This document shows positions 20,992-39,824 of a DNA stretch of 61,518 nt, piece by piece. The DNA lies in contig JAQXAG010000048.1 in NCBI GenBank assembly GCA_029253045.1, forward strand, positions 1 through 61,518, read 5' to 3'. Source of the DNA: Fidelibacterota bacterium (GTDB lineage: Bacteria > Fidelibacterota > Marinisomatia > Marinisomatales > Marinisomataceae). The notes below the pieces were generated by a model. It searched no databases, was not told the origin of the DNA, and saw nothing but the letters and a program-made list of their open reading frames with translations. The position numbers and the translations under genes were made by a program. Each line of letters starts with the position of its first letter. Positions within the stretch are counted from its first letter, which is position 1.

Positions 20992-21005
20992 GTATTAATT
21001 AATTT

Positions 21006-23446: not shown

Positions 23447-25189
23447 ATGGCCAGAAACAGAGTTATTTATCAAAGTGAGGCGCTTTTTGTAAGCCCAAAT
23501 GCCACAGGATCTCACTTCACATGCACAGCCGTAGTTACGGGACTAGGACCGAAAATTGGAGTTAATCCAGCAACAAATGCAGCAGGTCAGACTGGTAATG
23601 CATTAGCATTGCACACCTTGTCAAGTCCTGTAGGTCTTCAAGAAGATCCACTACTCACAAAAGGGTATGGAGAGGCTGAATTCACCGTTGCGAAATTAGC
23701 ATCAGCTCGAAATGCTGGATTAAATTACGGAAAACCTGGTGTTATAGATGTTCTTAATATTAGTGGTGCTGCAGCAGAATCCATTGGCGCGGAATTAAAA
23801 GCATTAAATGGATGGGAACCTGCAGGAGCGCCAATCTTAAACGGAGGAAATACTCAAAATGCAGCAAGAGCTACTCTTGTAGCTGATAACACTGGTCAGT
23901 TACATTTCTTTACAAGAAAAAGTCATTTTGAAAATGCGGAAGCAGCTTATTTTAAATTAGGTGATGGACCTACTACTGGACCCGCTGGAGCTATATCTGC
24001 AGCAGATAGACAAAAAACTCCTTTCTGCGCTTTTATTCAACCATGGTCTGGCGACTATGAAAATCTTGTTCAACAAATTCATAGGGTACAAAGTGCTAAT
24101 TACAGCTTTACTATTAACAGAACTGATGTTAATACTTTTGGTCAACTCGCAAGAATTGATGCCATCGCACTTGAGCCACCCACAGTAAATCTTGACTTTA
24201 CTTATTACCCAACCGATGGTTTTAATGAAAGAAATCTTGGTTTCTATGTTCAAGGAGAAGACGGTTTGGGAGCACAAATGGGAGCTGCTGCAAGAAATAC
24301 CGCAGCAGGACACATGGGCTCAGACAATGCGGGTAAGAACTTTTTTATCTTAACCACACCTGAATCAACTGATGCATTTAATTCTACCGATTCAATTTCA
24401 GAAAGAAGTGTTATTGGATTAGGTAATGGATTCCTTAGCGATTATACTATAGAAGCCTCTGTTGGATCTATACCAACCGCAAACAGTACGATTGAGCTTT
24501 ATAATGCAAAATCTGACATTGGAACCACTGGAGTATCAATCCCTGGAGTTAATCTTGTAAATGGTCTAGCTTCAACAGGAGCTAACTTCTCACTAGGTCA
24601 TCCTGAATCTTTAAGAGGAGATTTTAAGGGAGCTTCGCCAAGTACTGGTGAGTTCGGAGGCTCTTCAATTACAGCCCTTAGACCTGGAGATATTCAACTT
24701 GAACTTCCTGCAGAACTTTCAATGTTCTCTAAGGTTTCTGGAGATGGAGCAGTTCACATACAAAACTTTAGTTTAAGTATGCCATTAAGCCGTAGCCCAA
24801 TTGATAGGTTAGGAACTAGGTTTGCATTCTCTAGAGTTGTAGACTTGCCCGTAACCGCGTCTCTAAGTGTAAGTGCTTTAATGTCAGACATAGGAACTGG
24901 AAATCTTGCAGACTTACTTGATGATTGTAAGGAGCACGATGTTAAGATCAAAATGTTTGGTCTCACTTCCTGTAATCCTGGAGATGAAAAAGTTCAAGCA
25001 TTAACGGTTGACTTTAAGGGAGCAAGAATTGATAGTGAATCAATGTCATCTGATATTGGAAGCAATAAGAGTGTTGACTTAACTTTCACAACTCAAATTG
25101 GAGGCCCAGAAGATCTTCTCCATGGAGTATTCATTTCTGGCGCGAATAGGAATATTATTCCAACATACGCTGATATACCTAATCGATAA
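23447..25189 (+). CDS. major tail (tube) protein with duplicated tube-like domain (T5 pb6-like architecture)
   Basis: 580 aa, the last gene before the TMP. It has elevated G+C and a strong terminator follows. The N-terminus MARNRVIYQSEALFVS recalls T5 pb6 (LRNTRIFVST). There are two copies of a tube-type motif: VQSANYSFTINRTDVNTFGQL...PPTVNLDFTYY (nt ~24086-24206) and IQNFSLSMPLSRSPIDRLGTR...PVTASLSVSAL (nt ~24757-24880). Confidence 0.65.
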   Translation: MARNRVIYQSEALFVSPNATGSHFTCTAVVTGLGPKIGVNPATNAAGQTGNALALHTLSSPVGLQEDPLLTKGYGEAEFTVAKLASARNAGLNYGKPGVIDVLNISGAAAESIGAELKALNGWEPAGAPILNGGNTQNAARATLVADNTGQLHFFTRKSHFENAEAAYFKLGDGPTTGPAGAISAADRQKTPFCAFIQPWSGDYENLVQQIHRVQSANYSFTINRTDVNTFGQLARIDAIALEPPTVNLDFTYYPTDGFNERNLGFYVQGEDGLGAQMGAAARNTAAGHMGSDNAGKNFFILTTPESTDAFNSTDSISERSVIGLGNGFLSDYTIEASVGSIPTANSTIELYNAKSDIGTTGVSIPGVNLVNGLASTGANFSLGHPESLRGDFKGASPSTGEFGGSSITALRPGDIQLELPAELSMFSKVSGDGAVHIQNFSLSMPLSRSPIDRLGTRFAFSRVVDLPVTASLSVSALMSDIGTGNLADLLDDCKEHDVKIKMFGLTSCNPGDEKVQALTVDFKGARIDSESMSSDIGSNKSVDLTFTTQIGGPEDLLHGVFISGANRNIIPTYADIPNR

Positions 25190-25299: not shown

Positions 25300-28200
25300 A
25301 TGCCATTAAAAATACCAACAGTACAAGTAGGCCTTGAAAAGTCTATACAAAAAGCTGTAAAGAATGTTAGTTCTAGAGGCGGATTAAACTTATCTCTTAA
25401 TGATAGAAATTTTACTAGACCTTTAGGGAAGATAACTGGTTCAGTAAGCGAATTCAATAAATCACTAGAAGCTTCAAATGCTAGAGTTTTAGCTTTCGGC
25501 GCATCTGTAGGGATCATAAACGGTGTACAAACTGCATTTAAAGCATTATTGCAAACTACAATACAGGTAGAAAAACAGCTTACTGAAATTAACATCGTTA
25601 TGGGATTAACTAACTCTCAGTTAGATGATTTCTCAAAAGGACTTTTTAAAGTAGCTAAGAATACAGCACAATCTTTTTCAACTGTTGCAACTGCAGCAAC
25701 AGAACTAGCAAGACAAGGTTTGACGATGGAGGAAACCTTGAAAAGAACTAATGATGCCCTTATACTTACAAGGTTGACTGGCTTAGATGCTGCTAATGCA
25801 GTAAGCGGTTTAACTGCAGCTTTAAACACATTTAATAAAGCTGGTCTAGACTCCACCAAAATTTTAAGTAAAATGGCTGCGGTTGATGTTCAATTCGCAG
25901 TTAGTACTGAAGACTTGATTGATGCCGTGTCTAGAGCTGGTGCTGTAGCTCAAGATGCTGGTGTTAGTTTCGACCAACTACTAGGTGCTGTTACCGCAGC
26001 TCAACAACAAACAGCTAGAGGCGGTAAAGTTATAGGTAATAGTTTTAAAACTATATTTACTCGTGTGCAAAGATCTAGCACCATAAGTAGATTAGAAGAA
26101 TTGGGTATAGCAGTCAGAGATATAGCAGGTAATACATTACCAGCCATAACAGTTCTTGAAAATTTATCTAAAACATATGAAACTTTAGCTGACACTACGA
26201 AAGCTGCTGTTGCAGAGCAAGTGGGTGGAGTTTTTCAAATCAACATTTTAAAAGCTGCTATAAACGATTTGTCATCAGCAAACAGTATATTAGCTAGAGC
26301 CACTCAAATATCAGCCAGTGCAACAGACGAAGCTTATAAAAAGAACGAAATTCTGAATAGGTCGCTATCCGCATTATCTTCTCAAGCGGCATCGAGCATA
26401 AAAGAGCTTGCTAATTTAGTTGGAGATATTGGGTTTTCTGACCAAATTAGAGATTATCTAACTTTTATTAGAGATCAGGTTAGCGGAATATCAGACTTCC
26501 TGGGGCAAAAAGAAGGGGAGTCAGCTGGAGCAGATTTTGCAAAAGGATTAATTGCTGGAATAGGAAACGTAATAAGTGGGCCAGGTTTATTTTTAGCTGG
26601 AGCCGTCTTAATAAAACTTTTTGCAAAAACATCTCAATTTCTTCTTGGAAGTGCTAAAGAATTAATGGGTGTTGTAAGTGCTTCTCAAAAACAAAAAAGA
26701 ATACAAGAATCAATTGTTACAGTTCTTGGTGAAAATAGCAATTTACAAAGAAGAATATTATCTCAAGAAGGCAATAGAGCAGCTCAAGAAAAAACAATAC
26801 TCACTTTGCTTCAAGCCCAAAATAGAGAGCAACAAAGAATTGCTGCCGCTGCGAAAGCAATAGGGCCTTCGGTTTTAAGAGCGGGTTTTAATACGGGATT
26901 GAGTAAAGGGAAAAGCGGAGGGCATATACCTAATTATGTGTCTGCAGAAGAAAGGATAATGGAGAAACAGGGTGCGAGATCTGGAGGTTATTCCGCTGGT
27001 TCAGTGAAATCAATGAATGTTGGAGGAAGGGGTAGGGTAGTATATAATACAGCCGAAAAAGTTAAAAAATTTCCAGGACTTAGCGAACCAGCTATAATGC
27101 CGCCCCAGCAAAGTTCTGCAGGAAAAAAATACCAAAACAGTTTTGAACAAATACATGGATTTAATCCTTATAGCAATAAGGGTATGGTTCCAAATTATGC
27201 GAATCCTAGATCTAAAGTATTCGCTAAAGAAATGGGGGGAGGTCAAGTAGGAGGTCCACCCAGACAGGTTACTTTTACATCGATGGTAGGGTCTAAAAAG
27301 TTCGTCGATGCTCAAACGATGGAAATTCCAGTATCAGGATCTGATAAAATGGGGCTACAAGTTATTTTTACTGGAGACTCTCCGCAAAGCTTGAGAGGTC
27401 AAGGATATGGAACTGAACTTTATGAGCATATGGCTGGATATGCAAAGAAGAAAGGGTATGCTGGATTATACGGCGATATGGGAACATCTATTTCTGCCAT
27501 GAGAGTTATAGATAGTATAGCTAAAAGAAAAACTTTTAAAGTTGAAAAAGCTAAAGATCTTAAATTTCATAAAGATGATTTTGAAACAGAGGGAATGTGG
27601 GGTAGTGATGATTGGACATATAAACTATCCAGTCAAGGGAAAATACCTAATTATGCACTATCTAATACTCCAGTAGGAGCTGATTTCTTACTTGGCTTAA
27701 GTGCCGCTAGTCCAGCCAACTACAAAACGAGTACAATAGCTAAGTATGAAGCGCACAAAGATCCAACAAAACTTAATGACTTATTGTCCAGCCCCCAAAG
27801 AACACTTGAGGCGTTAAAGTATTTAGATAATAAAGGCTTAAACCAAGTAAAAGACTCAATGCTGTCTACTGGATTGCTAACAGATAGAGATTGGGAGTTA
27901 GTAAAACAAGGGGTTGGTAAAAAACCCGAAGGTAATATAGCGGATATTCTTAGGAAGACACCCGCTAGAGATTTGTTAAATTACATGTCTGGAAATACAG
28001 ATAGAATAAGCGGAAATATACCAGGAACATTTCTAAGGTTAATGGATAGAGATGAAAGAGATAAAATTGCTCTTGACATGATAGGAAGAACAGGAGTCTC
28101 TGGGGTTGTTAAAAAACAAGTTGGATTAATGGGCAAAAGCAAAAACAGAATGCGAGATGCTCAAATGGAAGTTATGTCATCAGACGTGCCAAGGTTAGCA

Positions 28201-31200
28201 TACAACCCAGAAAGAGGCATAACTAAAGCTAGAAGCCAGGGCTACTTGCTGGCTCAAATGTATAGGACAGGAAACCCTAGAGCTTCTCAACCATTTTATC
28301 CAGATTCATTTATTGATAGCAAGGGCGAGCTTAAGAAATTTAGAAAATTTGGAGATTTTTCAGAAAGACAAAATAGAATAAAGAAAATAGCAGACCAAAG
28401 AAGGATTGAATCCTCTTTTAGTTCAGGGCAAGGATCTTTAATGAGAGGAGCTGCATTAAACCAAAATTCAGGAAGAAATCTGTTGCTTTCTAACTTAGCC
28501 GCAGGAGGGGTAAGAAATCAAAAAGCAGTTCAAGATTTTGAACAGTTAATCTCCAGGGAACAAAACCCTTTAACAAGTAAACAAGCAATATCAAAAATTG
28601 CACCAAGTATAACACTGAATAAAGATTTAGAAGACTATTACAAAAAACTTAGAAAAAGATCAAGAGGTAGATTTGGTTTTAGTGACGGCATGATCCCCAA
28701 TTATGCGATGCGAATAGACCCTACAAAAATATCACCTTTTGCATCAAGAGCAAGGGCGGGAAAAATTAACTCTTCAAAACACGATGGAGTTATAGGAATG
28801 TCAAAACTCTCTGAGATATTAAATGGTAGATTATTTACATCCATAAAATACCAGAAATCAGGAGGAGGGGGAACTCAAGACCTTTTTCTCTCTGGGGCTA
28901 GGTCTGGTGTTCATAAATATAAAAAAGGAGCACCGCCTCCTGCTAAGTACACAAGCTATGCAGACATGGACGCTAAAACAGGAACAACGGTTGTTCATGC
29001 AAACTCTGCGGGAGTTGGAGAGAAAGGCTACAGAAGATTAAAACTAAATAGAGTAGACAGTGTAGTCTCGCAAGGTAAGCATTTTAAAGTTGATCCTAAC
29101 ATGGCTAATGCAGGAATGGTTCCTAATTTTATGCTTGGAAAAATAAGAACAGTGGCCCAGGCAGTGGGGATGTTTAAAAAGGATACTGGTTTATTTTCTG
29201 CTCTTTCAGGTAAAAACTTTTGGAGCAGAAGAACTAATTCTATAAAATTAAGAGAAAGTAATTATGACGAAGTAAGACAATTTATTAATAGTAGGTCTTT
29301 TAGATCGCTGCCAGAAGGCGAAAGAAATAAAATATTAAAAGACTTAAAAAATCAATCTGAAAATCTAAATGTAAACGATGTAACTAGATCTTATTTTCAA
29401 TATGGAGATCCTGATTATCAAGGAAGAATTCATGCTAGCTCAGGAGCTATACCAAATTATGCAAATCTATTTTCAGGTGGAGCTTCAAAAGTATTATCAA
29501 AAAACCCTCAATATGGTGGAGCTGTAAAAGACGCAATAGCTAGAGAAGCTTCTTTTGGGCTGACTCCTAGAGTGGTACAAGCTCCATCTTTAAGAAGCTC
29601 AAGAAATCCAGGGTTAGCTGTAGTAAACCAAGAACAAGAAGGAGGCAGGTTGTCTAATGCAAGAAAGTTGCATGGAGGTTTAAACCCTAACAAGAAAAGC
29701 TCTGCAATTCCTAATTATGCAATACAACCAGTTGGTTTAAGTGAAGTAATACAATCTAGAGTAGGAGCGTTAAGAGAGGTTGATGCTCTAGGCTTAGATG
29801 CTGTATCAAAATCTGCCGAGAGAGCTTCTCAAACAATTGATGAGCTTAGCGCAAGTACTCAGAAGGGAGAAGATTTCTTAAAACAACAATCTCAACAGTA
29901 TGCAAATTCTGCAGAATTAATAAAAGAAAATAACCTAAGGGAAAAGGCAAGGCTGGGAACTCTCAAGAGAGAGAGTGTTGAGAGAAAAAAATACATGAGA
30001 GAAACCTTTAGGAAAGATGCTTTAGGTTCTCTAGCTGGAACTGATGGCCCAATGGGAGATTTAGCAAAATCCCTACAAGGAGAAGGCTTCGAAAAAAATC
30101 TAAGAACTCAAATGGGGGTCGCACAACAATCAGGAGATGTAGAGACATTAAAAGGGTTAGAAAGATTGAATGATGCTATAGATAGAAGTGCTTCATCAGC
30201 CATGGATGACCCAAAAACTCAAGCAAAATTCCTAGAAGATAGTTTGAAGAAAGCCAGTAGAGACGAAAAAAGACTGGAAAGATTTAGAGGCACAAAAGGA
30301 TACGGACAAACAGAGCTTAAAAAGTTTTTTGCTCAAGAATTTCTATCTCAAAGAGGTGTTCAAACCACAGACCAAACACAAGCCTTAAGTGTTCTAAGCT
30401 CAATGGGACGAAGAGGACAAGAAGATTTTAAAGCTTTTACTCAAGAACAAGGAGTTTTATCTTCAAATAAGGCATTAGCCAGATCAGGATTAAGGACTGG
30501 GCAATTTGGAAGTTTAGTTAAAGGTGATGGATCAAACTTTATATCTAAACTTGAAAAATTTCAAAACAAATTAGATGCTGGGGAATCAACTAGATCTTTA
30601 AGAAAAGATTTATTTAGAGAAGCAGCTAAAGTAGGGAAAAATTCTGATTCAGCTCAAACCCTTCAAGCTATGGTTGCCAATACAAGACAGCAACAAAAGG
30701 AGGATAAACAACAAAAAAGAAGAGATGCACGAGCTCGCCTTGGTCAAAGACAATTACGACAAGGGGGTGGGTTTAGAGCATCTTTTCTTTCAGGAACTGG
30801 GGGATCAAACTTAAGATCTTCAGGAATTATAGGTGGACTTGGAAATAGATTAGGAAGAACTGCTGGAGCAGCTAGGGCTGGTGCAGGTAATTTTGTGAAG
30901 AGTGGTTTTGCTGGAGGATTTGGCGGGCAAGTTGGATTAGGTTTATCCATAGTAGCCCCTATGCTTGCTGGCATGATCGCCAATCAAACTCCAAGAGAAG
31001 ATAGAGCAACATTAAAAAACGGAAGGTTTGAGGTTGGGGGAACTGGTAAAGATATGGCATCCAGCACACTCATGGGAGTGGGAATGGGAGCTATTTTCGG
31101 AGCTCCTGGAGCTATAGCTGGAGGGTTTATAGGATTTATAAACTCAATGAAGAAAGCTACCCTCACTATAGATGAGCAAATTAGAGTAAGAGAAAAAGAA

Positions 31201-34200
31201 ATAGCTTTAATAGGTCAAAACATGCAAGCCGCACAATCAATACAAAACCTTTCAACATCCAGAGCTCAAGCTTTAGCAACTGGAGATATGGATAAAGTGG
31301 CAAATGTAGATACCGCAATGAATCAAGCTTTAGCGGGAGTTAATGATATTGATACTCTTAAGAGGTTAGCTTCTGCTGGGGGAGATAATGATGCATTATC
31401 TCAAATACAAAGAGGTTTACAAGACCAAATGACTAATGCCGTCAGTGTTCAAAACTTCGGGGTAGCTCTTAAAAATTCAGACCAAGTCAAAGCTGCAAAA
31501 AATGCTGGTGTTGCAATGGGGTCAATGATTGCTCAAGCTATTAGAAATGAAGATATGGACGAAGGTACTGCATTAGAAACCTTGAGAAACATACAAACAA
31601 GTACTGCAGAAAAAGAAGGTATGGGAATGCTTGACACGAAAAGCCTTAATTCTCTAAGAAAACGAGCTGAGGGGGCTCAAGGGATGACGAGTCCAGGTAC
31701 ATTGGGAGGAGCAGGGGTTGGGCTTGCGGCAGCAGGAGGATTGGCTTTAGCGGGTGTTGCGACTGGAGGAGCAGCCTTAGTAGTTGCCGCTCTACTTGCG
31801 GGCGGCGGAGCTTTAGCTGGAAGAGGAATCGAAAGCTCTATGGCGGAAGGTGATTTGGAAGATGCGCAAAAACTTGGATTAGATGAAATAAACGAGCTTT
31901 CTAAGTTAGTTGAAGCTGGAGCTATGACCGAAGTTCAAATGCAACAATTAACGGCTGCATTCAGAGAGGGAGAAATAAGTATAGGTGATATAGCCAAAGA
32001 AGCTGAAGGAGCTGTAATAGAATTTCAAAAAATTAAAAAAGCATCAGATAGAGCTAGCGAAGCATTATTCAATATAGATCAAACTTTTAAAAGAACTATA
32101 TCTAAAATGGCGGTAAGTTTAGAGGTTGACAAAATAAGATCTGGAGCTAAATCTTCGGTAGACAGATCTAATGCTAATTTTTCCTCTCAATTCATGTCTG
32201 GTAAAGATGCCTCATCTTTTCTAGGTAGAAGGCAAAGCAAGATACTAGCAAACGATGCTTCTGCGAGAATAGGTCAATTTTCAAGAGAGACAGATATAGG
32301 ATTCTTAAGAGACGTAAAAGCAAAGAGTAAAAATTTAAACTTTGGAGGTCCTCAGATGGAATTCATAAGAAAGACCGTTGAAGAAAGTGGTGTTGCACCA
32401 ATAGAATCAATGGTAAGATCCAGAAAAATGGATGGGGTAATGAACCTTAATTTAGACACAGGAAGACTAGATGATATATTTGAAGCACTTGGTGTTCAAG
32501 GTGGAGTGGAGAAGTTTCAAGCGAATAGTAGTATCACTATGCCTGAAAATATTAATGACTTAGCAGGGTCTCTTGGAACCAATAATAAAGAAGAGCAAAA
32601 AAGAATAGTAGATGAAATAATACAAAATCTACCTGAAATCAGAAAAACAGGGGAAATGCAGACTAGTTTCACTAGGGAGCTTGCAGAGCCTGATGCAAAA
32701 ATGCTTACAGAAATCTTAGACTCAAGAAAAGAGCAGTTTCAAATAATACAAGAACAAATATTGGCTGAGAGGAAAAACTTAAGCGTTCAGATAGCTCAAA
32801 ATAATATTCAATCACACATACAAAATGATTTAGAATTACTTCAGAGGGAAATGGAAAATAGAGCTATGGCTGAAGAGACTAAACTTTTAGGAATAAAAGG
32901 AAGATCTCAAACAACCAAGTCCTTCGCTTCATTTGAAGGCGGAGAAATGTTTAGAGGAATGAATTCTGATAGTGAGGAGAATTCCAGGCAGGCAAAATTA
33001 AGAAAGCAAATTTTTGACGAGGATATGAAAGTGAGAAAGGCTGAAGCTTTAAACGCTTTGAAAAGAGAAGCTCAAAAAATACTTTCGGAGAAAAATCTTA
33101 TTAATGCATTGAACGATTTAAAAAGTTCTATAGATGAACAACTTGATGAAGCAGCAAAAGAGGGAGACATTTCTCAAGGTCAAGGAGGAGGATTATTGGT
33201 AGACAAAGGAGGGCAAGGCGGGGGAGCTGCAGGAGTTGGCAAAAGGCTTTCCGTGTTCAAGTCAGTAGAGGGTAGTTCAAAGATAAATGATCAAATACAA
33301 AAAGAAGGAACCCAAATAACAAATAAAAAGTCAGAAATAAAAACTATAAATGCAAAAAAAGAAAAACAAGTAAGCACGCAAAACAAAAAAGAAACAGAAA
33401 TAAAGACAATAACAGATTACCTGAATAGGGTTAGCTCTGCTAATAAACTGCCAGAAAATAAAGTTTTTTCAAAAAATGGGTTTAGTCTTGGTAATATACA
33501 AAGAATTAATTTAAGAGAGAGTGCTCTTGACGACATAAGAGATGACCTTAAAAGAGACCCTAAAATGAGTGCTCAGTTAGCTCAAACAACATACTCGGAA
33601 GGCGGCGATGGATTCGATGATGGAGGTGTGGTCCAAAGGACTAGAGATGCTACCGCAGGCGAAATGTCAGGCAGGCTGAAAGAATTGCTAGGCGAAAGAG
33701 AAAATGAGCTTAAGGCGGCTACCGAAAAAGTAGCAAAAAGAGATACTGACATAGCAGCACTAGAAGCTGACATACAAACAAGAGAAGAAAGAATAAAGAA
33801 ACTAGAAGAGAATTTGAGAGGTAGTGTTGTAGAATTAAGCGATGTTTTAAAAGGTCAGAACATAAAATTAGAAAAGATAAATTTAATAAACACAAAAGAG
33901 TTACAAGATAAAATTCAAGGAGCTACAAATTTAGAAGAAGTAACATCGGTTTTCGAATCAGAAATAAAAAGGCTAGGAGAAGGAAGGGTTGATGAGGTTA
34001 TTAGTGCAAGAATAAAGACATTAACCGAAGTCATGAAAAGCTTAAATTCAGGGCTGACCGAAGCAGAAAGAGGATTCAATGTAGCAGAAGCTCAAAGAGC
34101 AATGGAAGATTTTAATAGTAATTTAAATTTTTCTTCATATTCAAAATCTTCTTTTAATAGCATTAGAGGAATGGACAATGTAAATATTAGATCTATGGCT

Positions 34201-35937
34201 GGAGCAAGAGCGATGTCCAAAGTAGAAGACCAAACAAGAAGAGAGCAAGAATTTGATTTAGTACGAAACGACCCAACATCTACGAGAGCTGAAATAGCAA
34301 GGGCCGAAGCTGATATGGTGTCAAGAACGATAGGAACTAAAGATCAAAGAACTAAAATGACTGACATGAGGGGTGACTTAGCTACATATAACAGAAGTTT
34401 AAAAGGAGAAGAAGAACGTAAGTTAAATGCAATATCTACTGGAGATAAAGATTCTCAGGCTAGTGCTGAGGCGCAGATAGTAGATTTAAAGGATGCTATA
34501 TTAGAATTAGATACATCTATGGAGGATTTAGCCCTAGAGATGACTAGGACAACTCCTAGGGATAAAGGTTTTATGGGTGAATTTACAGAAAATACATCTA
34601 TGGGTTTAAAAATGGGATTTGCTGAGATAGAAGAGCAATCCGAACTAATTTATACTAGGTTGGGTAGAGATTTGCCTATGCTCTTTAGGGACGGCCTAGT
34701 TGATGCAATGCAAGCTGCAATTGACGGAAGTCAAAGCTTAGAAGATTCTTTTAGGCAAATTGGTGTCACACTTTTACAAAACATACAAAAAGCATTCTTG
34801 ACTAGCGCATCAAATAGAATAACAGGAGCTGTAGGAAATCTTTTTGACATAGATGGCTACAACTCAGGGGGATATGTAAATGGTGGCAGCGGAACTAAAG
34901 ACGATATTCCTGCTATGTTGATGGGTGGAGAATACGTAATAAAGAAAAGCGCTGTTGATAGATATGGAGTTAACTTTCTTGAAAATCTAAATAGTGGAAC
35001 TTTGCCTGGATTTAGAGATGGAGGAGGAGTTAATTTAGCTATAGGTGGGCCAAAAGTAGCAGAAAGAGAAAAATTTATTGATGAAAATAAATATGGAAAT
35101 GTTACTAGATACAAGACTACAAAAGCTGGAATAGGTATAAACAGTTCATTATCTTCATATGCCATAAATAACGATAGGTCTATTCAGAAATACTTTAGAG
35201 ATCAAGAGGGGCAATTCAATCAAGATATATCAACAAGAAATCAAGAAAAACAAAGAAAGAAACAAGAAGAGTACCAGAAAAAAGTAGAAAAAAATCAAAT
35301 GTGGAATGCGCTTATAGGCATTGCTGGCTCAGCTTTATTAAGTAAAGCTATTGATTTTGGTATGGATAAATATAATCAAACTGATTTTGCAAAAAATAGA
35401 GCGGCTAAAAAAGCTCAGCGCTCGATGGATGATAAAGGTTATGTTGACGTAAGAGGAAGAAGCATAAATAAAATTTATAAAAAACCTTCTGAAGCAGCAA
35501 AAGTTAGAAGTGAGATTAGAAGTGTTCATAGGAATAATGGGTGGGAAGCTTCTTCAGCCCTTATGAGGGATTATGGAATTGGGGGTTCTGTTGATAAGGA
35601 TGGCATAGTTATAAGAAACAAAGGGGGCGGAGTTCCATCTAGACTTACAGGCGGAGAATATGTAATGAGTCCTAGTGCTGTAAAAACTTACGGATCAACC
35701 TTAATGGAGGGCTTAAATAGCGGTTCTGTTTCAGCTCCAAGTACTTCAGGAGGAGGAGGGTCAGGGCAAGTAAGCAATATTAGTCATGGTGATGTTAATA
35801 TTAGTATTAATGTTGATGGTTCTGGGGGAACATCTGGAGGGGCTGATATTAATTCTTCAGAATTTGCAACTAAAGTTAAAAGTGCTGTAATGCAGGTGAT
35901 ATCAAAAGAAAAAAGAGTGGGAGGCACCTTAAGATAA
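25300..35937 (+). CDS. tail tape measure protein, 3,545 aa
   Basis: The N-terminal ~330 aa match the TP901-family TMP core pattern (TEINIVMGLTNSQLDDFSKGLFKVAKNTAQSFSTVATAATELARQGL...DLIDAVSRAGAVAQDAGVSFDQLLGAVTAAQQQT). There are long coiled-coil stretches and Gly/Ala-rich hydrophobic segments (nt ~26590-26650, 30880-31130, 31690-31830, 35310-35350). The canonical C-terminal motif is present twice. The gene sits between the major tail gene and the tail-tip genes. Confidence 0.9.
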   Translation: MPLKIPTVQVGLEKSIQKAVKNVSSRGGLNLSLNDRNFTRPLGKITGSVSEFNKSLEASNARVLAFGASVGIINGVQTAFKALLQTTIQVEKQLTEINIVMGLTNSQLDDFSKGLFKVAKNTAQSFSTVATAATELARQGLTMEETLKRTNDALILTRLTGLDAANAVSGLTAALNTFNKAGLDSTKILSKMAAVDVQFAVSTEDLIDAVSRAGAVAQDAGVSFDQLLGAVTAAQQQTARGGKVIGNSFKTIFTRVQRSSTISRLEELGIAVRDIAGNTLPAITVLENLSKTYETLADTTKAAVAEQVGGVFQINILKAAINDLSSANSILARATQISASATDEAYKKNEILNRSLSALSSQAASSIKELANLVGDIGFSDQIRDYLTFIRDQVSGISDFLGQKEGESAGADFAKGLIAGIGNVISGPGLFLAGAVLIKLFAKTSQFLLGSAKELMGVVSASQKQKRIQESIVTVLGENSNLQRRILSQEGNRAAQEKTILTLLQAQNREQQRIAAAAKAIGPSVLRAGFNTGLSKGKSGGHIPNYVSAEERIMEKQGARSGGYSAGSVKSMNVGGRGRVVYNTAEKVKKFPGLSEPAIMPPQQSSAGKKYQNSFEQIHGFNPYSNKGMVPNYANPRSKVFAKEMGGGQVGGPPRQVTFTSMVGSKKFVDAQTMEIPVSGSDKMGLQVIFTGDSPQSLRGQGYGTELYEHMAGYAKKKGYAGLYGDMGTSISAMRVIDSIAKRKTFKVEKAKDLKFHKDDFETEGMWGSDDWTYKLSSQGKIPNYALSNTPVGADFLLGLSAASPANYKTSTIAKYEAHKDPTKLNDLLSSPQRTLEALKYLDNKGLNQVKDSMLSTGLLTDRDWELVKQGVGKKPEGNIADILRKTPARDLLNYMSGNTDRISGNIPGTFLRLMDRDERDKIALDMIGRTGVSGVVKKQVGLMGKSKNRMRDAQMEVMSSDVPRLAYNPERGITKARSQGYLLAQMYRTGNPRASQPFYPDSFIDSKGELKKFRKFGDFSERQNRIKKIADQRRIESSFSSGQGSLMRGAALNQNSGRNLLLSNLAAGGVRNQKAVQDFEQLISREQNPLTSKQAISKIAPSITLNKDLEDYYKKLRKRSRGRFGFSDGMIPNYAMRIDPTKISPFASRARAGKINSSKHDGVIGMSKLSEILNGRLFTSIKYQKSGGGGTQDLFLSGARSGVHKYKKGAPPPAKYTSYADMDAKTGTTVVHANSAGVGEKGYRRLKLNRVDSVVSQGKHFKVDPNMANAGMVPNFMLGKIRTVAQAVGMFKKDTGLFSALSGKNFWSRRTNSIKLRESNYDEVRQFINSRSFRSLPEGERNKILKDLKNQSENLNVNDVTRSYFQYGDPDYQGRIHASSGAIPNYANLFSGGASKVLSKNPQYGGAVKDAIAREASFGLTPRVVQAPSLRSSRNPGLAVVNQEQEGGRLSNARKLHGGLNPNKKSSAIPNYAIQPVGLSEVIQSRVGALREVDALGLDAVSKSAERASQTIDELSASTQKGEDFLKQQSQQYANSAELIKENNLREKARLGTLKRESVERKKYMRETFRKDALGSLAGTDGPMGDLAKSLQGEGFEKNLRTQMGVAQQSGDVETLKGLERLNDAIDRSASSAMDDPKTQAKFLEDSLKKASRDEKRLERFRGTKGYGQTELKKFFAQEFLSQRGVQTTDQTQALSVLSSMGRRGQEDFKAFTQEQGVLSSNKALARSGLRTGQFGSLVKGDGSNFISKLEKFQNKLDAGESTRSLRKDLFREAAKVGKNSDSAQTLQAMVANTRQQQKEDKQQKRRDARARLGQRQLRQGGGFRASFLSGTGGSNLRSSGIIGGLGNRLGRTAGAARAGAGNFVKSGFAGGFGGQVGLGLSIVAPMLAGMIANQTPREDRATLKNGRFEVGGTGKDMASSTLMGVGMGAIFGAPGAIAGGFIGFINSMKKATLTIDEQIRVREKEIALIGQNMQAAQSIQNLSTSRAQALATGDMDKVANVDTAMNQALAGVNDIDTLKRLASAGGDNDALSQIQRGLQDQMTNAVSVQNFGVALKNSDQVKAAKNAGVAMGSMIAQAIRNEDMDEGTALETLRNIQTSTAEKEGMGMLDTKSLNSLRKRAEGAQGMTSPGTLGGAGVGLAAAGGLALAGVATGGAALVVAALLAGGGALAGRGIESSMAEGDLEDAQKLGLDEINELSKLVEAGAMTEVQMQQLTAAFREGEISIGDIAKEAEGAVIEFQKIKKASDRASEALFNIDQTFKRTISKMAVSLEVDKIRSGAKSSVDRSNANFSSQFMSGKDASSFLGRRQSKILANDASARIGQFSRETDIGFLRDVKAKSKNLNFGGPQMEFIRKTVEESGVAPIESMVRSRKMDGVMNLNLDTGRLDDIFEALGVQGGVEKFQANSSITMPENINDLAGSLGTNNKEEQKRIVDEIIQNLPEIRKTGEMQTSFTRELAEPDAKMLTEILDSRKEQFQIIQEQILAERKNLSVQIAQNNIQSHIQNDLELLQREMENRAMAEETKLLGIKGRSQTTKSFASFEGGEMFRGMNSDSEENSRQAKLRKQIFDEDMKVRKAEALNALKREAQKILSEKNLINALNDLKSSIDEQLDEAAKEGDISQGQGGGLLVDKGGQGGGAAGVGKRLSVFKSVEGSSKINDQIQKEGTQITNKKSEIKTINAKKEKQVSTQNKKETEIKTITDYLNRVSSANKLPENKVFSKNGFSLGNIQRINLRESALDDIRDDLKRDPKMSAQLAQTTYSEGGDGFDDGGVVQRTRDATAGEMSGRLKELLGERENELKAATEKVAKRDTDIAALEADIQTREERIKKLEENLRGSVVELSDVLKGQNIKLEKINLINTKELQDKIQGATNLEEVTSVFESEIKRLGEGRVDEVISARIKTLTEVMKSLNSGLTEAERGFNVAEAQRAMEDFNSNLNFSSYSKSSFNSIRGMDNVNIRSMAGARAMSKVEDQTRREQEFDLVRNDPTSTRAEIARAEADMVSRTIGTKDQRTKMTDMRGDLATYNRSLKGEEERKLNAISTGDKDSQASAEAQIVDLKDAILELDTSMEDLALEMTRTTPRDKGFMGEFTENTSMGLKMGFAEIEEQSELIYTRLGRDLPMLFRDGLVDAMQAAIDGSQSLEDSFRQIGVTLLQNIQKAFLTSASNRITGAVGNLFDIDGYNSGGYVNGGSGTKDDIPAMLMGGEYVIKKSAVDRYGVNFLENLNSGTLPGFRDGGGVNLAIGGPKVAEREKFIDENKYGNVTRYKTTKAGIGINSSLSSYAINNDRSIQKYFRDQEGQFNQDISTRNQEKQRKKQEEYQKKVEKNQMWNALIGIAGSALLSKAIDFGMDKYNQTDFAKNRAAKKAQRSMDDKGYVDVRGRSINKIYKKPSEAAKVRSEIRSVHRNNGWEASSALMRDYGIGGSVDKDGIVIRNKGGGVPSRLTGGEYVMSPSAVKTYGSTLMEGLNSGSVSAPSTSGGGGSGQVSNISHGDVNISINVDGSGGTSGGADINSSEFATKVKSAVMQVISKEKRVGGTLR
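26920..29721 (+). repeat. seven-fold G-x-(I/V)-P-N-(Y/F)-A motif array within the TMP (protein-level repeat)
   Basis: GHIPNYV 26920-26940; GMVPNYA 27181-27201; GKIPNYA 27637-27657; GMIPNYA 28687-28707; GMVPNFM 29113-29133; GAIPNYA 29443-29463; SAIPNYA 29701-29721. All are in the TMP frame, at aa 541, 628, 780, 1130, 1272, 1382 and 1468. Confidence 0.85.
27208..27560 (+). other. GNAT-like N-acetyltransferase module embedded in the TMP (candidate)
   Basis: MGLQVIFTGDSPQSLRGQGYGTELYEHMAGYAKKKGYAGLYGDMGTSISAMRVIDSIAKRKTFKV fits GNAT motif A (beta4, then R/Q-x-x-G-x-G/A, then helix; RGQGYG at nt 27394-27411). It is followed by beta5-alpha4-beta6-like segments. The module is bounded by IPNYA motifs 2 and 3 (~145 aa). 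Confidence 0.4.
34867..35724 (+). other. two copies of the canonical C-terminal TMP motif (IPxxLxxGEYV...AV..YG...LE.LNSG)
   Basis: GGYVNGGSGTKDDIPAMLMGGEYVIKKSAVDRYGVNFLENLNSG (34867-34998) and NKGGGVPSRLTGGEYVMSPSAVKTYGSTLMEGLNSG (35617-35724). I recognise this as a motif common near the C-termini of siphovirus TMPs. Confidence 0.7.
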
Positions 35938-38535: not shown

Positions 38536-39441
38536 ATGGCTTTCTTAAAAAAAGAATCTGTAAATGCTGAACTTTTTAATCACACAAAAAGTGCTCATGT
38601 AGAATTTTTAGAAATATCTGAAATACCAAACTCTGGAGATGTCATTAGACTTCACGGCGGAGTTAACTCAATAAATGAATCAATTTTTTTTGGGGGTAAA
38701 GAGTATTTTTATATTCCATATGAAGGTGTAGACTTTGGAAGTAGGTCTGACGGAAGAGTATCAAGACCCACTATAAAAATAATTAATTATAGCGGATTTC
38801 TTTCGAAGTTCATGTTAGGAAAAGATGATTTAATAAGATCAAGAGTAACTAGAATAAGAACTTTTTTTAGATTTTTAGATAAAGAAAACTTTTTAAATTA
38901 TGATGCTGATAAAGGTTTTTGGGATAAAATGGGAATATCCCCAGATCCAGATGCAAGACTTAGGCCAGATGTATGGTACATAAATCAAAAGATAGAAGAG
39001 AATAAATTTTACATTGAATATGAATTATCCAATGCTCTTGATTTAGAGGGCGCCGTTTTACCCAGAAGGCAAATATTGAATAATTATTGTACATGGAAAT
39101 ACAGAGGAAAAGGTTGCAAGTATAGCGGAGGAGTAGCAGCTGATTCAAACGATGTTAAATTTGATAAAACTTCATTGAACCCAAGAGGTGAGTGGGCTGT
39201 TGGTGAAAATTATATTTTGGGAGATGTTGTTTATGTATGGACTAGGGAGGGGCAGGATCAAAGATCAATAATGTATGTATGCACAGAGCCTCATACATCA
39301 TCAAAAGGACTAAGACCGTCTATAAATACGTCGAATTGGGCTATGGATGCTTGCTCGAAGACCCTAAACGGCTGCAGATTAAGATTCGGTGAAGATAATG
39401 AGCTTCCTTTTGGCGGGTTTCCTTCAAGCAGGCTTTATTAA
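38536..39441 (+). CDS. minor tail protein, lambda gpL-like (Cys-cluster type)
   Basis: 301 aa. NNYCTWKYRGKGCKYSGG (nt ~39081-39130) and the C-terminal CSKTLNGCRLRFGEDNELPFGGFPSSRLY (39351-39438) match the gpL/BR0599-type cysteine cluster and the LPFGGFP ending. Confidence 0.8.
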   Translation: MAFLKKESVNAELFNHTKSAHVEFLEISEIPNSGDVIRLHGGVNSINESIFFGGKEYFYIPYEGVDFGSRSDGRVSRPTIKIINYSGFLSKFMLGKDDLIRSRVTRIRTFFRFLDKENFLNYDADKGFWDKMGISPDPDARLRPDVWYINQKIEENKFYIEYELSNALDLEGAVLPRRQILNNYCTWKYRGKGCKYSGGVAADSNDVKFDKTSLNPRGEWAVGENYILGDVVYVWTREGQDQRSIMYVCTEPHTSSKGLRPSINTSNWAMDACSKTLNGCRLRFGEDNELPFGGFPSSRLY

Positions 39442-39824
39442 TGAAAAGTGAAATTTTAAATAAAATTAAAAAGATTTCAGAATCCCAAAAAGAAGAAGAA
39501 ATTTGCGGGTTTATTGTAGAAGATAAAGGTAAAGAACATTTGGTTGAATGTGAAAATGTGTCTTTTCATAAAAAAGGTAATTTTGAGATATCACAAAAAA
39601 AATTTGTAGAAGTTTTTGAGCAAAATAAAATTTTAATTATTTACCATTCCCATCCAGAAAATACAGAACAGTTTTCAAAAGAAGATATAAATCTTAGTGA
39701 ATCTTTGATTCTGCCAATTATAGTTTATAGTAATCAAACTGAAAAATTTAACATACATATTCCCAAGGGGGTGAAAAGAAATAAATCATTAAACAGGGTG
39801 GAAAAAAGTGTAGTTACTTATTAG
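39441..39824 (+). CDS. JAB/MPN (JAMM) metallopeptidase-domain tail protein, lambda gpK N-terminal-like, without NlpC/P60 domain
   Basis: 127 aa. EEICGFIVE (upstream Glu) plus HSHPENTEQFSKED equals H-x-H-x7-S-x2-D (nt 39645-39686), a complete JAMM motif. It sits between the L-like and I-like genes. Confidence 0.8.
   Translation: MKSEILNKIKKISESQKEEEICGFIVEDKGKEHLVECENVSFHKKGNFEISQKKFVEVFEQNKILIIYHSHPENTEQFSKEDINLSESLILPIIVYSNQTEKFNIHIPKGVKRNKSLNRVEKSVVTY

What the first reader, a model, noticed from the sequence alone, without database searches (positions are those of the whole stretch)
26920..29721. Seven-fold G-x-(I/V)-P-N-(Y/F)-A motif array partitions a ~930-aa non-coiled insert of the tape measure protein into discrete modules
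The motif occurs at aa 541 (GHIPNYV), 628 (GMVPNYA), 780 (GKIPNYA), 1130 (GMIPNYA), 1272 (GMVPNFM), 1382 (GAIPNYA) and 1468 (SAIPNYA). Each copy follows a small/polar run (SGG, NKG, SQG, SDG, NAG, SSG, KSS). The motifs cut the region into modules of 86-350 aa that, unlike the rest of the TMP, do not look coiled-coil. Modules 1 and 6 also share ..VV.N..E....HG.(N/L)NP..K..(V/I)PNY. Copy 1 continues GGHIPNYVSAEERIM, which aligns with the canonical C-terminal TMP motif present twice here (DDIPAMLMGGEYVI; GGVPSRLTGGEYVM). The array may therefore be an amplified, degenerate form of that motif. I know of no described function. One hypothesis is that the motifs are domain-boundary or processing sites of a polyprotein-like cargo region delivered with the TMP. 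Lambda gpH is known to be proteolytically processed during assembly, and a complete JAMM peptidase gene lies 3.5 kb downstream. The alternative is that they are periodic docking contacts to the tube lumen.
Basis: partly seen in the sequence, partly recalled or inferred. Interest (0 to 1): 0.8.

Follow-up and report, generated by a model that had tools for sequence, protein, structure and literature searches.

The report
Motif-delimited enzyme cassettes inside tape measure
A giant phage tail "tape measure" protein carries a string of small swappable protein modules, at least one of them an enzyme, each fenced off by the same strictly conserved seven-residue motif; hundreds of uncultured aquatic phages share this layout, which looks like a way to load extra proteins into the tail and inject them into the host.

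Summary
The 3545-aa ORF (25300-35937) is a TP901-type tape measure protein (TMP). It holds exactly seven [IV]PN[YF] copies at the stated positions, against 0.02 expected by chance, and none elsewhere in the protein.

The motif is a hallmark of a large uncultured family: 361 protein clusters and 214 IMG/VR contigs, with the only genome hits in Flavobacteriales MAGs. Its consensus is [AS]-x-G-[FLHY]-[IV]-P-N-[FY]-[AS], and it is selected at the peptide level. In 1.5 Mb of related loci it occurs essentially only in TMPs.

The motif lies in predicted unstructured linkers and delimits cassettes. Two paralogous ~70-aa "bookend" domains usually open and close the array. Internal cassettes (104 families) differ in number and order between relatives. 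Window module 2 is a GNAT-fold acetyltransferase, and a cassette found in relatives is a staphylococcal-type nuclease. In a sister lineage the strict motif appears only where a cassette is present.

Best reading: a cargo array embedded in the TMP, with the motif needed at every cassette boundary. It is most plausibly a processing site (about 0.4); a docking peptide is nearly as likely. Derivation from the canonical C-terminal TMP motif and a link to the JAMM gene (an ordinary lambda gpK homolog) are not supported.

The parts
25300..35937 (+). Tape measure protein ORF, 3545 aa
   Evidence: ORF list and translation. PF10145 E=2e-25 at aa 118-310. TIGR01760 E=6e-33 at aa 76-403. PHROG tape measure families.
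25525..26508 (+). TP901-type tape measure N-terminal domain (aa 76-403)
   Evidence: TIGR01760 match and PF10145 match.
26545..26646 (+). Gly-rich hydrophobic stretch, aa 416-449, just upstream of the array
   Evidence: Kyte-Doolittle scan.
26920..26940 (+). Motif copy 1, GHIPNYV (aa 541-547)
   Evidence: Low pLDDT in the model.
26941..27180 (+). Module 1 (aa 548-627): N-terminal 'bookend', family 0. Small alpha/beta domain.
   Evidence: AF2 core pLDDT 86-93. No fold match in PDB or BFVD. Conserved at about aa 520-650 in hundreds of TMPs.
27181..27201 (+). Motif copy 2, GMVPNYA (aa 628-634)
27202..27636 (+). Module 2 (aa 635-779): GNAT-fold acetyltransferase cassette, family 8
   Evidence: Foldseek top 50 hits are all GNAT, E down to 1e-4, prob 1.0. 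All PDB profile hits are GNAT, E about 0.1. Pfam Acetyltransf_1 matches motif A only, E=0.005, below the cut-off.
27637..27657 (+). Motif copy 3, GKIPNYA (aa 780-786)
27658..28686 (+). Module 3 (aa 787-1129): cassette family 6, function unknown
   Evidence: Cluster of 11 TMPs. No Pfam hit.
28687..28707 (+). Motif copy 4, GMIPNYA (aa 1130-1136)
28708..29112 (+). Module 4 (aa 1137-1271): cassette family 3, function unknown
   Evidence: Cluster of 18 TMPs. No Pfam or PDB hit.
29113..29133 (+). Motif copy 5, GMVPNFM (aa 1272-1278)
29134..29442 (+). Module 5 (aa 1279-1381): cassette family 5, function unknown
   Evidence: Cluster of 12 TMPs. No significant Pfam or PDB hit.
29443..29463 (+). Motif copy 6, GAIPNYA (aa 1382-1388)
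29464..29700 (+). Module 6 (aa 1389-1467): C-terminal 'bookend', family 0, a diverged paralog of module 1
   Evidence: BLASTP against module 1, E=8e-5. Same cluster as module 1; a family 0 module is last in 99 of 120 arrays.
29701..29721 (+). Motif copy 7, SAIPNYA (aa 1468-1474)
34906..34938 (+). Canonical C-terminal TMP unit, copy 1 (IPAMLMGGEYV, aa 3203-3213). Not related to the array motif.
   Evidence: hhalign negative.
35632..35664 (+). Canonical C-terminal TMP unit, copy 2 (VPSRLTGGEYV, aa 3445-3455)
39441..39824 (+). JAB/JAMM protein, the lambda gpK-position homolog. Context only, not shown to be part of the system.
   Evidence: PF14464 E=3e-10 and phrog_30. Flanked by gpL (PF05100) and gpI (phrog_32) homologs.

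Best explanation
**What it is (shown).** The seven motif copies are the delimiters of a cassette array inserted after about aa 540 of a TP901-type tape measure protein. The phage is an uncultured siphophage with lambda-like tail-tip genes, probably infecting Flavobacteriia.
- The array opens and closes with two paralogous ~70-aa alpha/beta 'bookend' domains.
- Between them sit four internal cassettes.
- Each cassette, bookends included, is flanked on both sides by G-x-[IV]-P-N-[YF]-A in a short unstructured linker.
- In relatives the same and about 100 other cassette families occur in other numbers and orders, always with the motif at each boundary.
- At least some cassettes are enzymes: a GNAT acetyltransferase here, a staphylococcal-type nuclease in relatives.

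**How it most likely works (inferred).**
1. The cassettes are cargo. They are synthesised as part of the TMP, so they are drawn into the tail-tube lumen at fixed stoichiometry.
2. They leave the tail with the TMP just ahead of the DNA.
3. The motif is the signal needed once per boundary. Most plausibly it is an endoproteolytic processing site, cut after [FY] or after N, that releases the cassettes as free proteins.
4. The array lies deep inside the tube, so the cut would have to be autocatalytic, bookend-assisted, or made by a host protease after ejection.

**Confidence by step.**
- Motif-delimited, shuffled cargo array: about 0.8.
- Cassettes injected to act on the host: about 0.55.
- Motif is a cleavage site: about 0.4.
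For: **Motif and family.**
- Seven copies against 0.02 expected.
- 361 protein clusters match the array region, mostly TMPs of 2000-5200 aa. 214 IMG/VR contigs carry module 1.
- The family-wide logo from 670 instances has P 100%, N 95% and G 92%, with nothing conserved beyond position +4.
- Third codon positions vary freely: all four Pro and all four Gly codons are used, and 405 instances give 260 distinct 21-mers. Selection therefore acts on the peptide.
- In 1.5 Mb of six-frame translation from 86 loci, every hit but one 63-aa antisense segment lies in a TMP ORF.

**Cassette behaviour.**
- 495 modules fall into 105 families. Family 0 is first in 78 and last in 99 of 120 arrays. Order is permuted: WIN 0-8-6-3-5-0, P0004 0-3-6-8-0, P0005 0-3-8-6-5-0, P0008 0-10-8-14-3-6-0. 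Minimal arrays are 0-1-0.
- Natural control in a sister lineage:
  - The cassette-less P0035 has only degenerate GGLIPQ/GGLIPF.
  - Its relatives P0042 and P0057, which carry cassettes, have a strict G-L-[IV]-PNF motif at each cassette boundary. P0060 has it on both sides of its 230-aa cassette.
  - Within P0038 and P0039, only the boundaries of the one cassette carry the strict motif.
- No array among 84 loci is split into separate genes at a motif. This is consistent with a need for covalent linkage at synthesis.

**Structure.**
- Module 1 folds confidently while both flanking motifs have low pLDDT. The same holds for module 2.

**Enzymes.**
- GNAT.
- SNase with DGD / R..L..D..E / Y.RG kept.

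**Precedent.** Lambda gpH and T5 pb2 are cleaved in the particle. For gpH the protease and the exact site are unknown (PMC12617516).
Against: - No cleavage has been observed, and no family member is cultured: tblastn against 50,697 phage records found nothing.
- No protease gene is consistently linked to the array within +-10 kb. The gpK JAB protein is generic to lambda-like tails.
- The array lies far from either end of the TMP, so a trans-acting protease could hardly reach it in an assembled tube.
- Three to six TMP chains each carrying ~930 aa of globular domains must fit a lumen about 4 nm wide (my estimate). Module 3, at 343 aa, would not fit as a compact globule.
- Modules 3-5 have no recognisable function, so 'enzyme cargo' rests on one cassette in this window.
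- In some lineages the first copy of the motif is degenerate.
Confidence: 0.45

Rival explanations
1. Uncleaved docking or threading peptide. The motif is a short linear motif that binds one common partner: the inner wall of the tail tube, a tail-assembly chaperone, or the bookend domains. Each globular cassette is thereby positioned and the tube can keep polymerising across a non-helical stretch. The TMP stays in one piece.
For: - The motif sits in flexible linkers, as short linear binding motifs do.
- The invariant Pro-Asn-aromatic core suits a binding pocket as well as it suits a protease.
- A universal partner exists in every phage: the tube-position protein is conserved in 68 loci. No universal protease was found.
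- The array is never split into separate genes.
- The bookend domains are always present and have no catalytic signature.
Against: - Spacing is irregular, 5-625 aa.
- n cassettes carry n+1 motifs, i.e. both flanks, which excision requires and anchoring does not.
- No complementary feature was found. The tube-like protein's C-terminal 'IIPTYA' is not conserved in relatives.
- Enzyme cassettes tethered inside a 3545-aa chain would have limited reach.
Confidence: 0.3
2. Recombination scar or linker. The motif has no biochemical role of its own. It persists because its coding sequence supplies the microhomology at which cassettes are exchanged between TMP genes, or because it is simply a tolerated linker.
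For: Cassettes are clearly exchanged and permuted between related TMPs, with junctions exactly at the motif.
Against: - Synonymous positions vary freely: 260 distinct 21-mers in 405 copies, and all four Pro and Gly codons are used. Amino acids are nearly invariant over 670 copies and more than 100 cassette families. Conservation is therefore at the peptide level.
- 12-21 nt with degenerate third positions is poor recombination homology.
- The cassette-less relative has lost N-[FY] while keeping G-x-I-P. This implies a function tied to cassettes.
Confidence: 0.07
3. The array is an amplified, degenerate form of the canonical C-terminal TMP unit (..D-[IV]-P-A-x-L-x-x-G-E-Y-V..).
For: - Both start with [IV]-P, and copy 1 has a Glu at a similar distance.
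- In some relatives the canonical unit is followed about 25 aa later by G-x-[IL]-P-x-[FY]-A-x-GG (by eye).
Against: - Profile-profile comparison of module 1 (23 sequences) with the canonical unit (24 sequences) gives probability 0.3%, E=0.18, over 9 columns.
- Nothing downstream of the motif is conserved across the family.
Confidence: 0.03
4. Compositional or chance artefact, or an assembly chimera.
For: None found.
Against: - 0.02 copies expected against 7 seen.
- The motif is absent from other proteins.
- The same architecture occurs on hundreds of independent contigs.
Confidence: 0

Closest known systems
Proteolytic processing of tape measure proteins: lambda gpH to gpH* + gpHC, and T5 pb2 to pb2* + pb2C
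   Same: Both are TMPs of non-contractile tails that are cut after tail assembly, with the pieces staying in the particle. For gpH the protease and the exact site are unknown (PMC12617516). The tail-tip gene set here is lambda-like.
   Different: Those are single cuts near the C-terminus at the tail tip, with no known consensus. Here there are seven candidate sites with a strict heptapeptide consensus, 540-1474 aa from the N-terminus, bounding swappable domains. Cleavage has not been shown here.
TMPs with embedded enzymatic domains: peptidoglycan hydrolase or Rpf-like motifs in mycobacteriophage, T5 and other TMPs
   Same: A functional, non-measuring domain is carried inside the TMP and delivered at infection. 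PMC12617516 notes that several TMPs harbour a peptidoglycan hydrolase. The mycobacteriophage examples are from my own knowledge (Pedulla 2003; Piuri and Hatfull 2006).
   Different: Those are one domain, muralytic, with no delimiting motif. Here there are 1-12 internal cassettes per TMP drawn from about 100 families, non-muralytic where identified (GNAT, SNase), permuted between relatives and fenced by a conserved motif and bookend domains.
TMP-related modular effectors of contractile injection systems (Streptomyces Sle1 family)
   Same: A TMP-derived trunk is packaged in a tail-like tube and carries an exchangeable functional domain that differs between relatives (PMC13277306; PMC11126660).
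   Different: Those have one variable C-terminal domain, belong to actinobacterial CIS rather than phages, and no delimiting motif was noted in the abstract I read. There is no sequence relationship to the array described here.
Polymorphic toxin and cargo fusions with a demarcating motif: Rhs/YD proteins (PxxxxDPxGL) and MuF-toxin fusions of temperate phages (my own knowledge)
   Same: A conserved delivery trunk, hypervariable enzymatic modules swapped by recombination, and a short conserved motif marking the trunk-cargo junction. In Rhs that motif is an autoproteolytic site.
   Different: Those have a single C-terminal toxin per protein, usually with an adjacent immunity gene. Here several cassettes sit in series in the middle of a structural protein. 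No immunity genes were looked for or noticed.
Viral polyproteins with a conserved cleavage heptapeptide, e.g. potyvirus NIa/TEV E-x-x-Y-x-Q|S/G (my own knowledge)
   Same: There is one site per domain boundary, conservation is on the P side and stops at P1'/P2', and the sites lie in flexible linkers.
   Different: Those encode their own protease within the polyprotein. No protease is identifiable here. Those are eukaryotic RNA viruses, and their products are replication proteins, not virion cargo.
Enzymes packaged in virions and injected: T4 Alt ADP-ribosyltransferase and internal proteins, N4 virion RNA polymerase, T7 gp16 (my own knowledge)
   Same: Phage enzymes are delivered with the DNA to act on the host immediately.
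   Different: Those are separate gene products packaged in the head, some with a protease-removed targeting peptide. They are not domains of the tail's tape measure.

Membership tests
TP901-family phage tail tape measure protein (PF10145 / TIGR01760) | Match to the family's N-terminal domain model above the curated cut-off | tested here: met
   PF10145 90.4 bits against cut-off 33.2. TIGR01760 114.4 bits against cut-off 28.8.
TP901-family phage tail tape measure protein (PF10145 / TIGR01760) | Gene position between tail-tube/chaperone genes and tail-tip genes | tested here: met
   Followed by gpM-like (PF05939), gpL (PF05100), gpK-like JAB, gpI (phrog_32) and a 2880-aa ORF in the gpJ position. 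Preceded by a protein conserved in 68 related loci.
TP901-family phage tail tape measure protein (PF10145 / TIGR01760) | Protein length sets tail length | not testable with these tools
   No virion is available.
GNAT acetyltransferase (module 2) | GNAT fold | tested here: met
   The top 50 Foldseek PDB hits are all GNAT enzymes, E down to 1e-4, prob 1.0, TM 0.4-0.5. The model is of moderate confidence, with core pLDDT 72-81.
GNAT acetyltransferase (module 2) | Motif A, Q/R-x-x-G-x-G/A, for acetyl-CoA binding | tested here: met
   RGQGYG is invariant in 7 homologs and aligns to motif A of GNAT structures.
GNAT acetyltransferase (module 2) | Pfam gathering threshold for Acetyltransf_1 | tested here: not met
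   17.6 bits against cut-off 20.7. Only 24 residues matched.
GNAT acetyltransferase (module 2) | Acetyl-transfer activity | not testable with these tools
   Needs a biochemical assay.
Proteolytically processed TMP / polyprotein | Fragments with ends at defined sites, seen in protein | not testable with these tools
   There is no cultured member and no proteomic data.
Proteolytically processed TMP / polyprotein | Conserved site at every domain boundary, in an accessible linker | tested here: met
   Logo, low-pLDDT linkers, and the motif tracking cassette presence.
Proteolytically processed TMP / polyprotein | A cognate protease | tested here: inconclusive
   None was recognised within +-10 kb of 84 TMP genes. 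The JAB gene is the generic gpK homolog. The bookend domain has no fold match. A host protease cannot be excluded.
Canonical C-terminal TMP unit (D-[IV]-P-A-x-L-x-x-G-E-[YF]-V) | Profile similarity between the array unit and the canonical unit | tested here: not met
   hhalign probability 0.3%.
Staphylococcal nuclease (cassette family 7, in relatives only, not in this window) | Model match and catalytic residues | tested here: met
   Pfam SNase 26.5 bits against cut-off 21. PDB thermonuclease E=5e-8. DGD, R-L-x-x-x-D-x-x-E and Y-x-R-G are invariant.
Polymorphic toxin systems | Adjacent cognate immunity gene | not tested
   Not examined. The cassettes sit inside a structural gene.

The most novel reading that the evidence does not exclude
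The array is a true polyprotein carried in the tail lumen. After ejection, or autocatalytically with help from the bookend domains, it is cut at every G-x-[IV]-P-N-[FY]-A site. This releases a lineage-specific, rapidly reshuffled set of effector enzymes (acetyltransferase, nucleases, HExxH proteins) into the host ahead of the DNA. It would be the first multi-effector tape measure and the first defined TMP cleavage signal. A further speculation: a cut between N and [FY] would give every released cassette an N-terminal Phe or Tyr, a bacterial N-degron, which would limit the lifetime of the injected enzymes.
Probability: 0.35. Interest if true: 0.88.

Novelty: new variant of a known kind. Interest (0 to 1): 0.72.

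Why it matters
**An open question becomes testable.** TMPs are thought of as rulers and channel formers that occasionally carry one muralytic domain. According to a 2025 structural study (PMC12617516), only lambda and T5 TMPs are known to be cleaved, and for lambda gpH neither the site nor the protease is known. This family offers an unmistakable heptapeptide present 4-14 times per protein. The questions 'are TMPs processed, where, and by what' become directly testable by mass spectrometry and mutagenesis.

**A new delivery route, if the cassettes are injected.** The tail lumen of a large group of aquatic phages would then be a delivery compartment for a fast-evolving arsenal of enzymes. That would be a new place to look for host-takeover and anti-defence functions, and a natural modular scaffold for loading foreign proteins into phage tails.

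**A packing problem.** The array also raises a structural question: how does ~930 aa of globular domains per chain fit inside a tube about 4 nm wide?

Tried and rejected
- **Known phages.** Megablast of 20 kb and tblastn of the array and of a module 1 consensus against 50,697 phage records found no match. No cultured relative or annotation could be used.
- **Word-indexed protein searches.** These gave only 3 relatives for the array and only short unnamed fragments for module 1. The exhaustive HMMER search was what revealed the family.
- **Genome scan.** It failed with the broad alignment. With a narrower alignment it returned only three hits in Flavobacteriales MAGs, so the host assignment is weak.
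- **Homology of the bookend to the canonical C-terminal TMP unit.** Rejected.
- **JAMM gene as a dedicated protease.** Rejected as a specific link, because it is the gpK-position gene of a lambda-like tip module. From my own knowledge, Iyer, Burroughs and Aravind (2006) proposed that JAB domains of this kind act on the ubiquitin-like gpI.
- **Tube-position protein ending in IIPTYADIPNR as a motif mimic.** Not conserved in relatives. Dropped.
- **The S9/BD-FAE alpha/beta hydrolase at 11782-12636 as a prolyl endopeptidase for the invariant Pro.** Its best match is an esterase family. It lies outside the flanks available for related loci. Left unresolved.
- **Fold of the bookend domain.** No match in PDB or BFVD.
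- **Cassette families 3, 5 and 6 (window modules 4, 5, 3).** No Pfam hit for any of them. Families 3 and 5 also gave no significant PDB profile hit. Family 6 was not searched against PDB.
- **By-eye signatures in relatives.** LYRG..SYTT..ExE (ADP-ribosyltransferase-like, family 17), G.IFE..D[LF]..[DE].K (PD-(D/E)xK-like, families 1 and 36) and HExxH (families 28 and 30) got no support from Pfam or PDB profile searches. They are leads only.
- **First-versus-last bookend statistics.** An HMM built on module 1 failed because it does not detect the diverged last bookend. It did, however, expose the informative sister lineage.
- **Literature searches.** Four searches of the held open-access library found no description of this motif or architecture. 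A fifth search was used only for background on lambda gpH cleavage. Absence from this library is not proof of novelty.

Full report
**1. The observation**

The window holds one continuous ORF at 25300-35937 (+) of 3545 aa. It is a tape measure protein (TMP).
- PF10145 matches at aa 118-310 (E=2e-25).
- TIGR01760 matches at aa 76-403 (E=6e-33).
- Several PHROG tape measure families match the N-terminal ~460 aa.

Downstream lie homologs of lambda gpM (PF05939), gpL (PF05100), gpK (JAB domain only), gpI (phrog_32), and then a 2880-aa ORF in the gpJ position.

[IV]PN[YF] occurs exactly seven times, at aa 543, 630, 782, 1132, 1274, 1384 and 1470. No other PN[YFW] exists in the protein. Composition predicts 0.023 copies, and 2000 shuffles gave at most 2. 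In the six-frame translation of the window the looser pattern [IVLM]PN[YF] has only four other hits, and there is no further motif array. The seven copies use different codons.

**2. The motif is a family hallmark**

Known phages gave nothing. The word-indexed search gave three relatives. Their TMPs already showed the same motif and, strikingly, the same modules in a different order.

An exhaustive HMMER search with aa 521-1497 found 361 protein clusters at E<=1e-3. Most are TMPs of 2000-5200 aa that share module 1 at about aa 520-650. A degenerate-pattern scan found 214 IMG/VR contigs. The only hits in 185,579 species genomes were three contigs of Flavobacteriaceae or Flavobacteriales MAGs. 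Together with the 30-42% G+C of the window, this suggests a Flavobacteriia host, but only weakly.

Over 670 instances the motif is [AS]-x-G(92%)-[FLHY]-[IV]-P(100%)-N(95%)-[FY]-[A 54% / S 14%]. Nothing is conserved after that. At the DNA level all four Pro codons, all four Gly codons and both Asn codons are used, and 405 copies give 260 distinct 21-mers. The constraint is therefore on the peptide. In 1.5 Mb of six-frame translation from 86 loci, G.[IVLM]PN[YFW] occurs only in the TMP reading frame, apart from one 63-aa antisense segment.

**3. What the motif delimits**

I cut 120 long TMPs at the motif and clustered the 495 pieces. This gave 105 families.
- **Family 0** (57-133 aa, median 81) contains window modules 1 and 6. 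It is the first piece in 78 and the last piece in 99 of the 120 arrays. The two window copies are directly similar (BLASTP E=8e-5).
- **Internal pieces** belong to 104 families, 66 of them singletons. They are 5-625 aa long, median 202.
- **Motif copy number** per TMP is most often 4 (52 of 120), as bookend - one cassette - bookend, and reaches 14.
- **Order is permuted** among close relatives: window 0-8-6-3-5-0; P0004 0-3-6-8-0; P0005 0-3-8-6-5-0; P0006 0-39-40-10-6-3-8-0; P0008 0-10-8-14-3-6-0.

These are independent, exchangeable cassettes.

**4. Structure**

AlphaFold2 on aa 521-650 with a 36-sequence alignment gives a confident small alpha/beta domain: pLDDT 86-93 for about aa 551-620, arranged as helix, hairpin, two strands, helix. 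Both flanking motifs fall in low-confidence segments. The fold has no match in PDB or BFVD.

Module 2 with both motifs (8 sequences) gives a moderate model with core pLDDT 72-81. Again the motifs are disordered. The motif is therefore a linear element in linkers of about 15 aa between folded domains.

The insert is also richer in Pro than the rest of the TMP (4.7% against 1.15%, p=1e-9) and richer in Tyr. The rest of the protein has long helix-favouring stretches and four Gly-rich hydrophobic segments.

**5. What the cassettes are**

*Window module 2 is a GNAT-fold domain.*
- The top 50 Foldseek hits are all GNAT acetyltransferases (E down to 1e-4, prob 1.0).
- All seven PDB profile hits are GNAT enzymes, at E of about 0.1-0.7.
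- The invariant RGQGYG aligns with motif A.
- The Pfam score is below the gathering threshold.

*Cassette family 7* occurs in eight relatives but not in this window. It is a staphylococcal nuclease homolog (Pfam SNase 26.5 bits against cut-off 21; PDB thermonuclease E=5e-8). The catalytic constellation is invariant.

*Window modules 3, 4 and 5* gave nothing.

Other families show, by eye only, HExxH, LYRG/SYTT/ExE, or E...D...[DE]xK patterns. Profile searches did not confirm them.

**6. A natural control**

A sister lineage keeps the bookend domain but differs in cassette content.
- P0035 (2145 aa) has no cassette, and its bookend is flanked only by GGLIPQ and GGLIPF.
- P0042 and P0057, from the same lineage, have four cassettes each, with a strict G-L-[IV]-PNF-[AS] at every cassette boundary. 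P0060 carries the strict motif on both sides of its 230-aa cassette. In all three the site on the N-terminal side of the bookend stays GLIP[QE].
- In P0038 and P0039 the first bookend has no cassette and has degenerate flanks. The second bookend is followed by one ~390-aa cassette (~750 aa in P0039) bounded by FGYVPNYA and GGKIPNFA.

So G-x-I-P belongs to the bookend flank, and the full P-N-[FY] signal is present where, and only where, a cassette has to be delimited.

**7. Mechanism**

*Shown.* This is a motif-delimited, bookended, shuffled cassette array inside a TMP. Some cassettes are enzymes. The motif is unstructured and under strong peptide-level selection.

*Inferred.*
- The cassettes are made as part of the TMP, and the array is never split into separate genes in 84 loci. 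They are therefore drawn into the tube lumen with the TMP at its stoichiometry.
- TMPs leave the tail before the DNA (established for lambda and T5; PMC12617516). The array lies in the N-terminal third, so it would exit last, just ahead of the genome.

*Role of the motif.* The two live options are a processing site and a docking peptide.

I favour processing (about 0.4) for these reasons.
- Every cassette carries the motif on both flanks.
- Conservation is one-sided and stops at the small residue after the aromatic, as at protease sites.
- Enzymes would act better once freed.
- TMP cleavage has precedent, with protease and site still unknown for lambda gpH.

Against processing:
- No protease is linked to the array.
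- The sites are deep in the lumen, so cutting would have to be autocatalytic, bookend-assisted, or done by a host enzyme after ejection.

Docking (about 0.3) needs no protease, and a universal partner is available: the tube-position protein is conserved in 68 loci. It does not explain why both flanks are needed, and the spacing is irregular.

A pure recombination-scar explanation is contradicted. Derivation from the canonical C-terminal unit is contradicted.

**8. Comparison with known systems**

The protein is a member of the TP901 TMP family, and module 2 is a GNAT-fold domain. The array works like a polyprotein or like polymorphic-toxin cargo. Membership of any processed-protein class cannot be claimed without protein data.

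The closest precedents are:
- lambda gpH and T5 pb2 cleavage: a single C-terminal cut with no known consensus;
- TMPs with one muralytic domain;
- TMP-derived CIS effectors with one swappable domain (PMC13277306);
- Rhs or MuF toxin fusions with a demarcating motif;
- head-packaged injected enzymes such as T4 Alt.

None of these combines several serial cassettes, a strict delimiter and bookend domains. Four searches of the held literature found no description of this. The library covers only open-access papers.

**9. Verdict**

Boundaries and cargo-like content hold. Processing is untested. The canonical-motif origin, the JAMM link and periodic docking do not hold.
- I rate it a new variant of a known kind (a TMP carrying functional domains), of considerable interest. 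It is widespread, sharply defined, and turns TMP processing and tail-lumen cargo into testable questions.

Main caveats:
- There is no cultured member.
- Three of the four internal cassettes in this window have no assigned function.
- The host assignment is weak.
- The lumen-packing problem is unsolved.

Noticed in passing
window 3329-11734 (+), with 766-3315 and 11782-12636: A 2801-aa ORF with no Pfam hit. It is preceded by an 849-aa protein with DUF285 (BspA-like) repeats and followed by a 284-aa alpha/beta hydrolase (BD-FAE 1e-42, Peptidase_S9 4e-13). I considered the hydrolase as a prolyl-specific protease for the invariant Pro of the motif, but its best matches are esterases.
   Followed up: partly
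window 40551-49193 (+): A 2880-aa ORF directly after the gpI homolog, i.e. in the position of the lambda gpJ central fibre. It is unusually large.
   Followed up: no
window 26545-26646, 30922-30987, 31075-31140, 31696-31833: Four Gly-rich hydrophobic stretches in the TMP (aa 416-449, 1875-1896, 1926-1947, 2133-2178). They are candidate membrane-inserting segments. The first lies about 90 aa upstream of the cassette array.
   Followed up: no
window 34906-34938 and 35632-35664: The canonical C-terminal TMP unit ([IV]P-x-x-L-x-x-GEYV ... YG ... LN-G) is present twice. Of 103 long relatives, 51 carry two copies and 30 carry one. In some relatives it is followed about 25 aa later by G-x-[IL]-P-x-[FY]-A-x-GG, a superficial echo of the array motif.
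   Followed up: partly
window 23447-25189 (+): A 580-aa protein directly upstream of the TMP, with no family hit. It is conserved in 68 related loci and is likely the tail tube protein. It ends in IIPTYADIPNR, which resembles the motif, but relatives end in IPEHYSIPNR, IPQHYQIPGR or other sequences.
   Followed up: yes
window 19251-21311 (-): Three minus-strand ORFs (328, 253 and 101 aa) interrupt the otherwise plus-strand structural block. GC skew turns negative and G+C drops to 0.30 there. The same arrangement appears in L001.
   Followed up: no
L001 10001-21380: The homologous TMP on the JGI contig is broken by several frameshifts and one in-frame stop. The gene caller therefore split it into five ORFs. 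This is probably assembly error, not biology.
   Followed up: partly
relatives P0035, P0038, P0039, P0042, P0057, P0060: A sister lineage has a second bookend-like domain far downstream (for example P0042 aa 2310-2371), preceded by GGNIP and not adjacent to the cassette array. Its role is unknown.
   Followed up: no
relatives: cassette families 1, 17, 28, 30 and 36: By-eye catalytic-looking signatures: G.IFE...D[LF]...[DE].K (PD-(D/E)xK-like; family 1 is the commonest internal cassette, in 52 TMPs), LYRG/SYTT/ExE (ADP-ribosyltransferase-like), and HELSH/HEYGH (metallopeptidase-like). None was confirmed by Pfam or PDB profile searches.
   Followed up: partly
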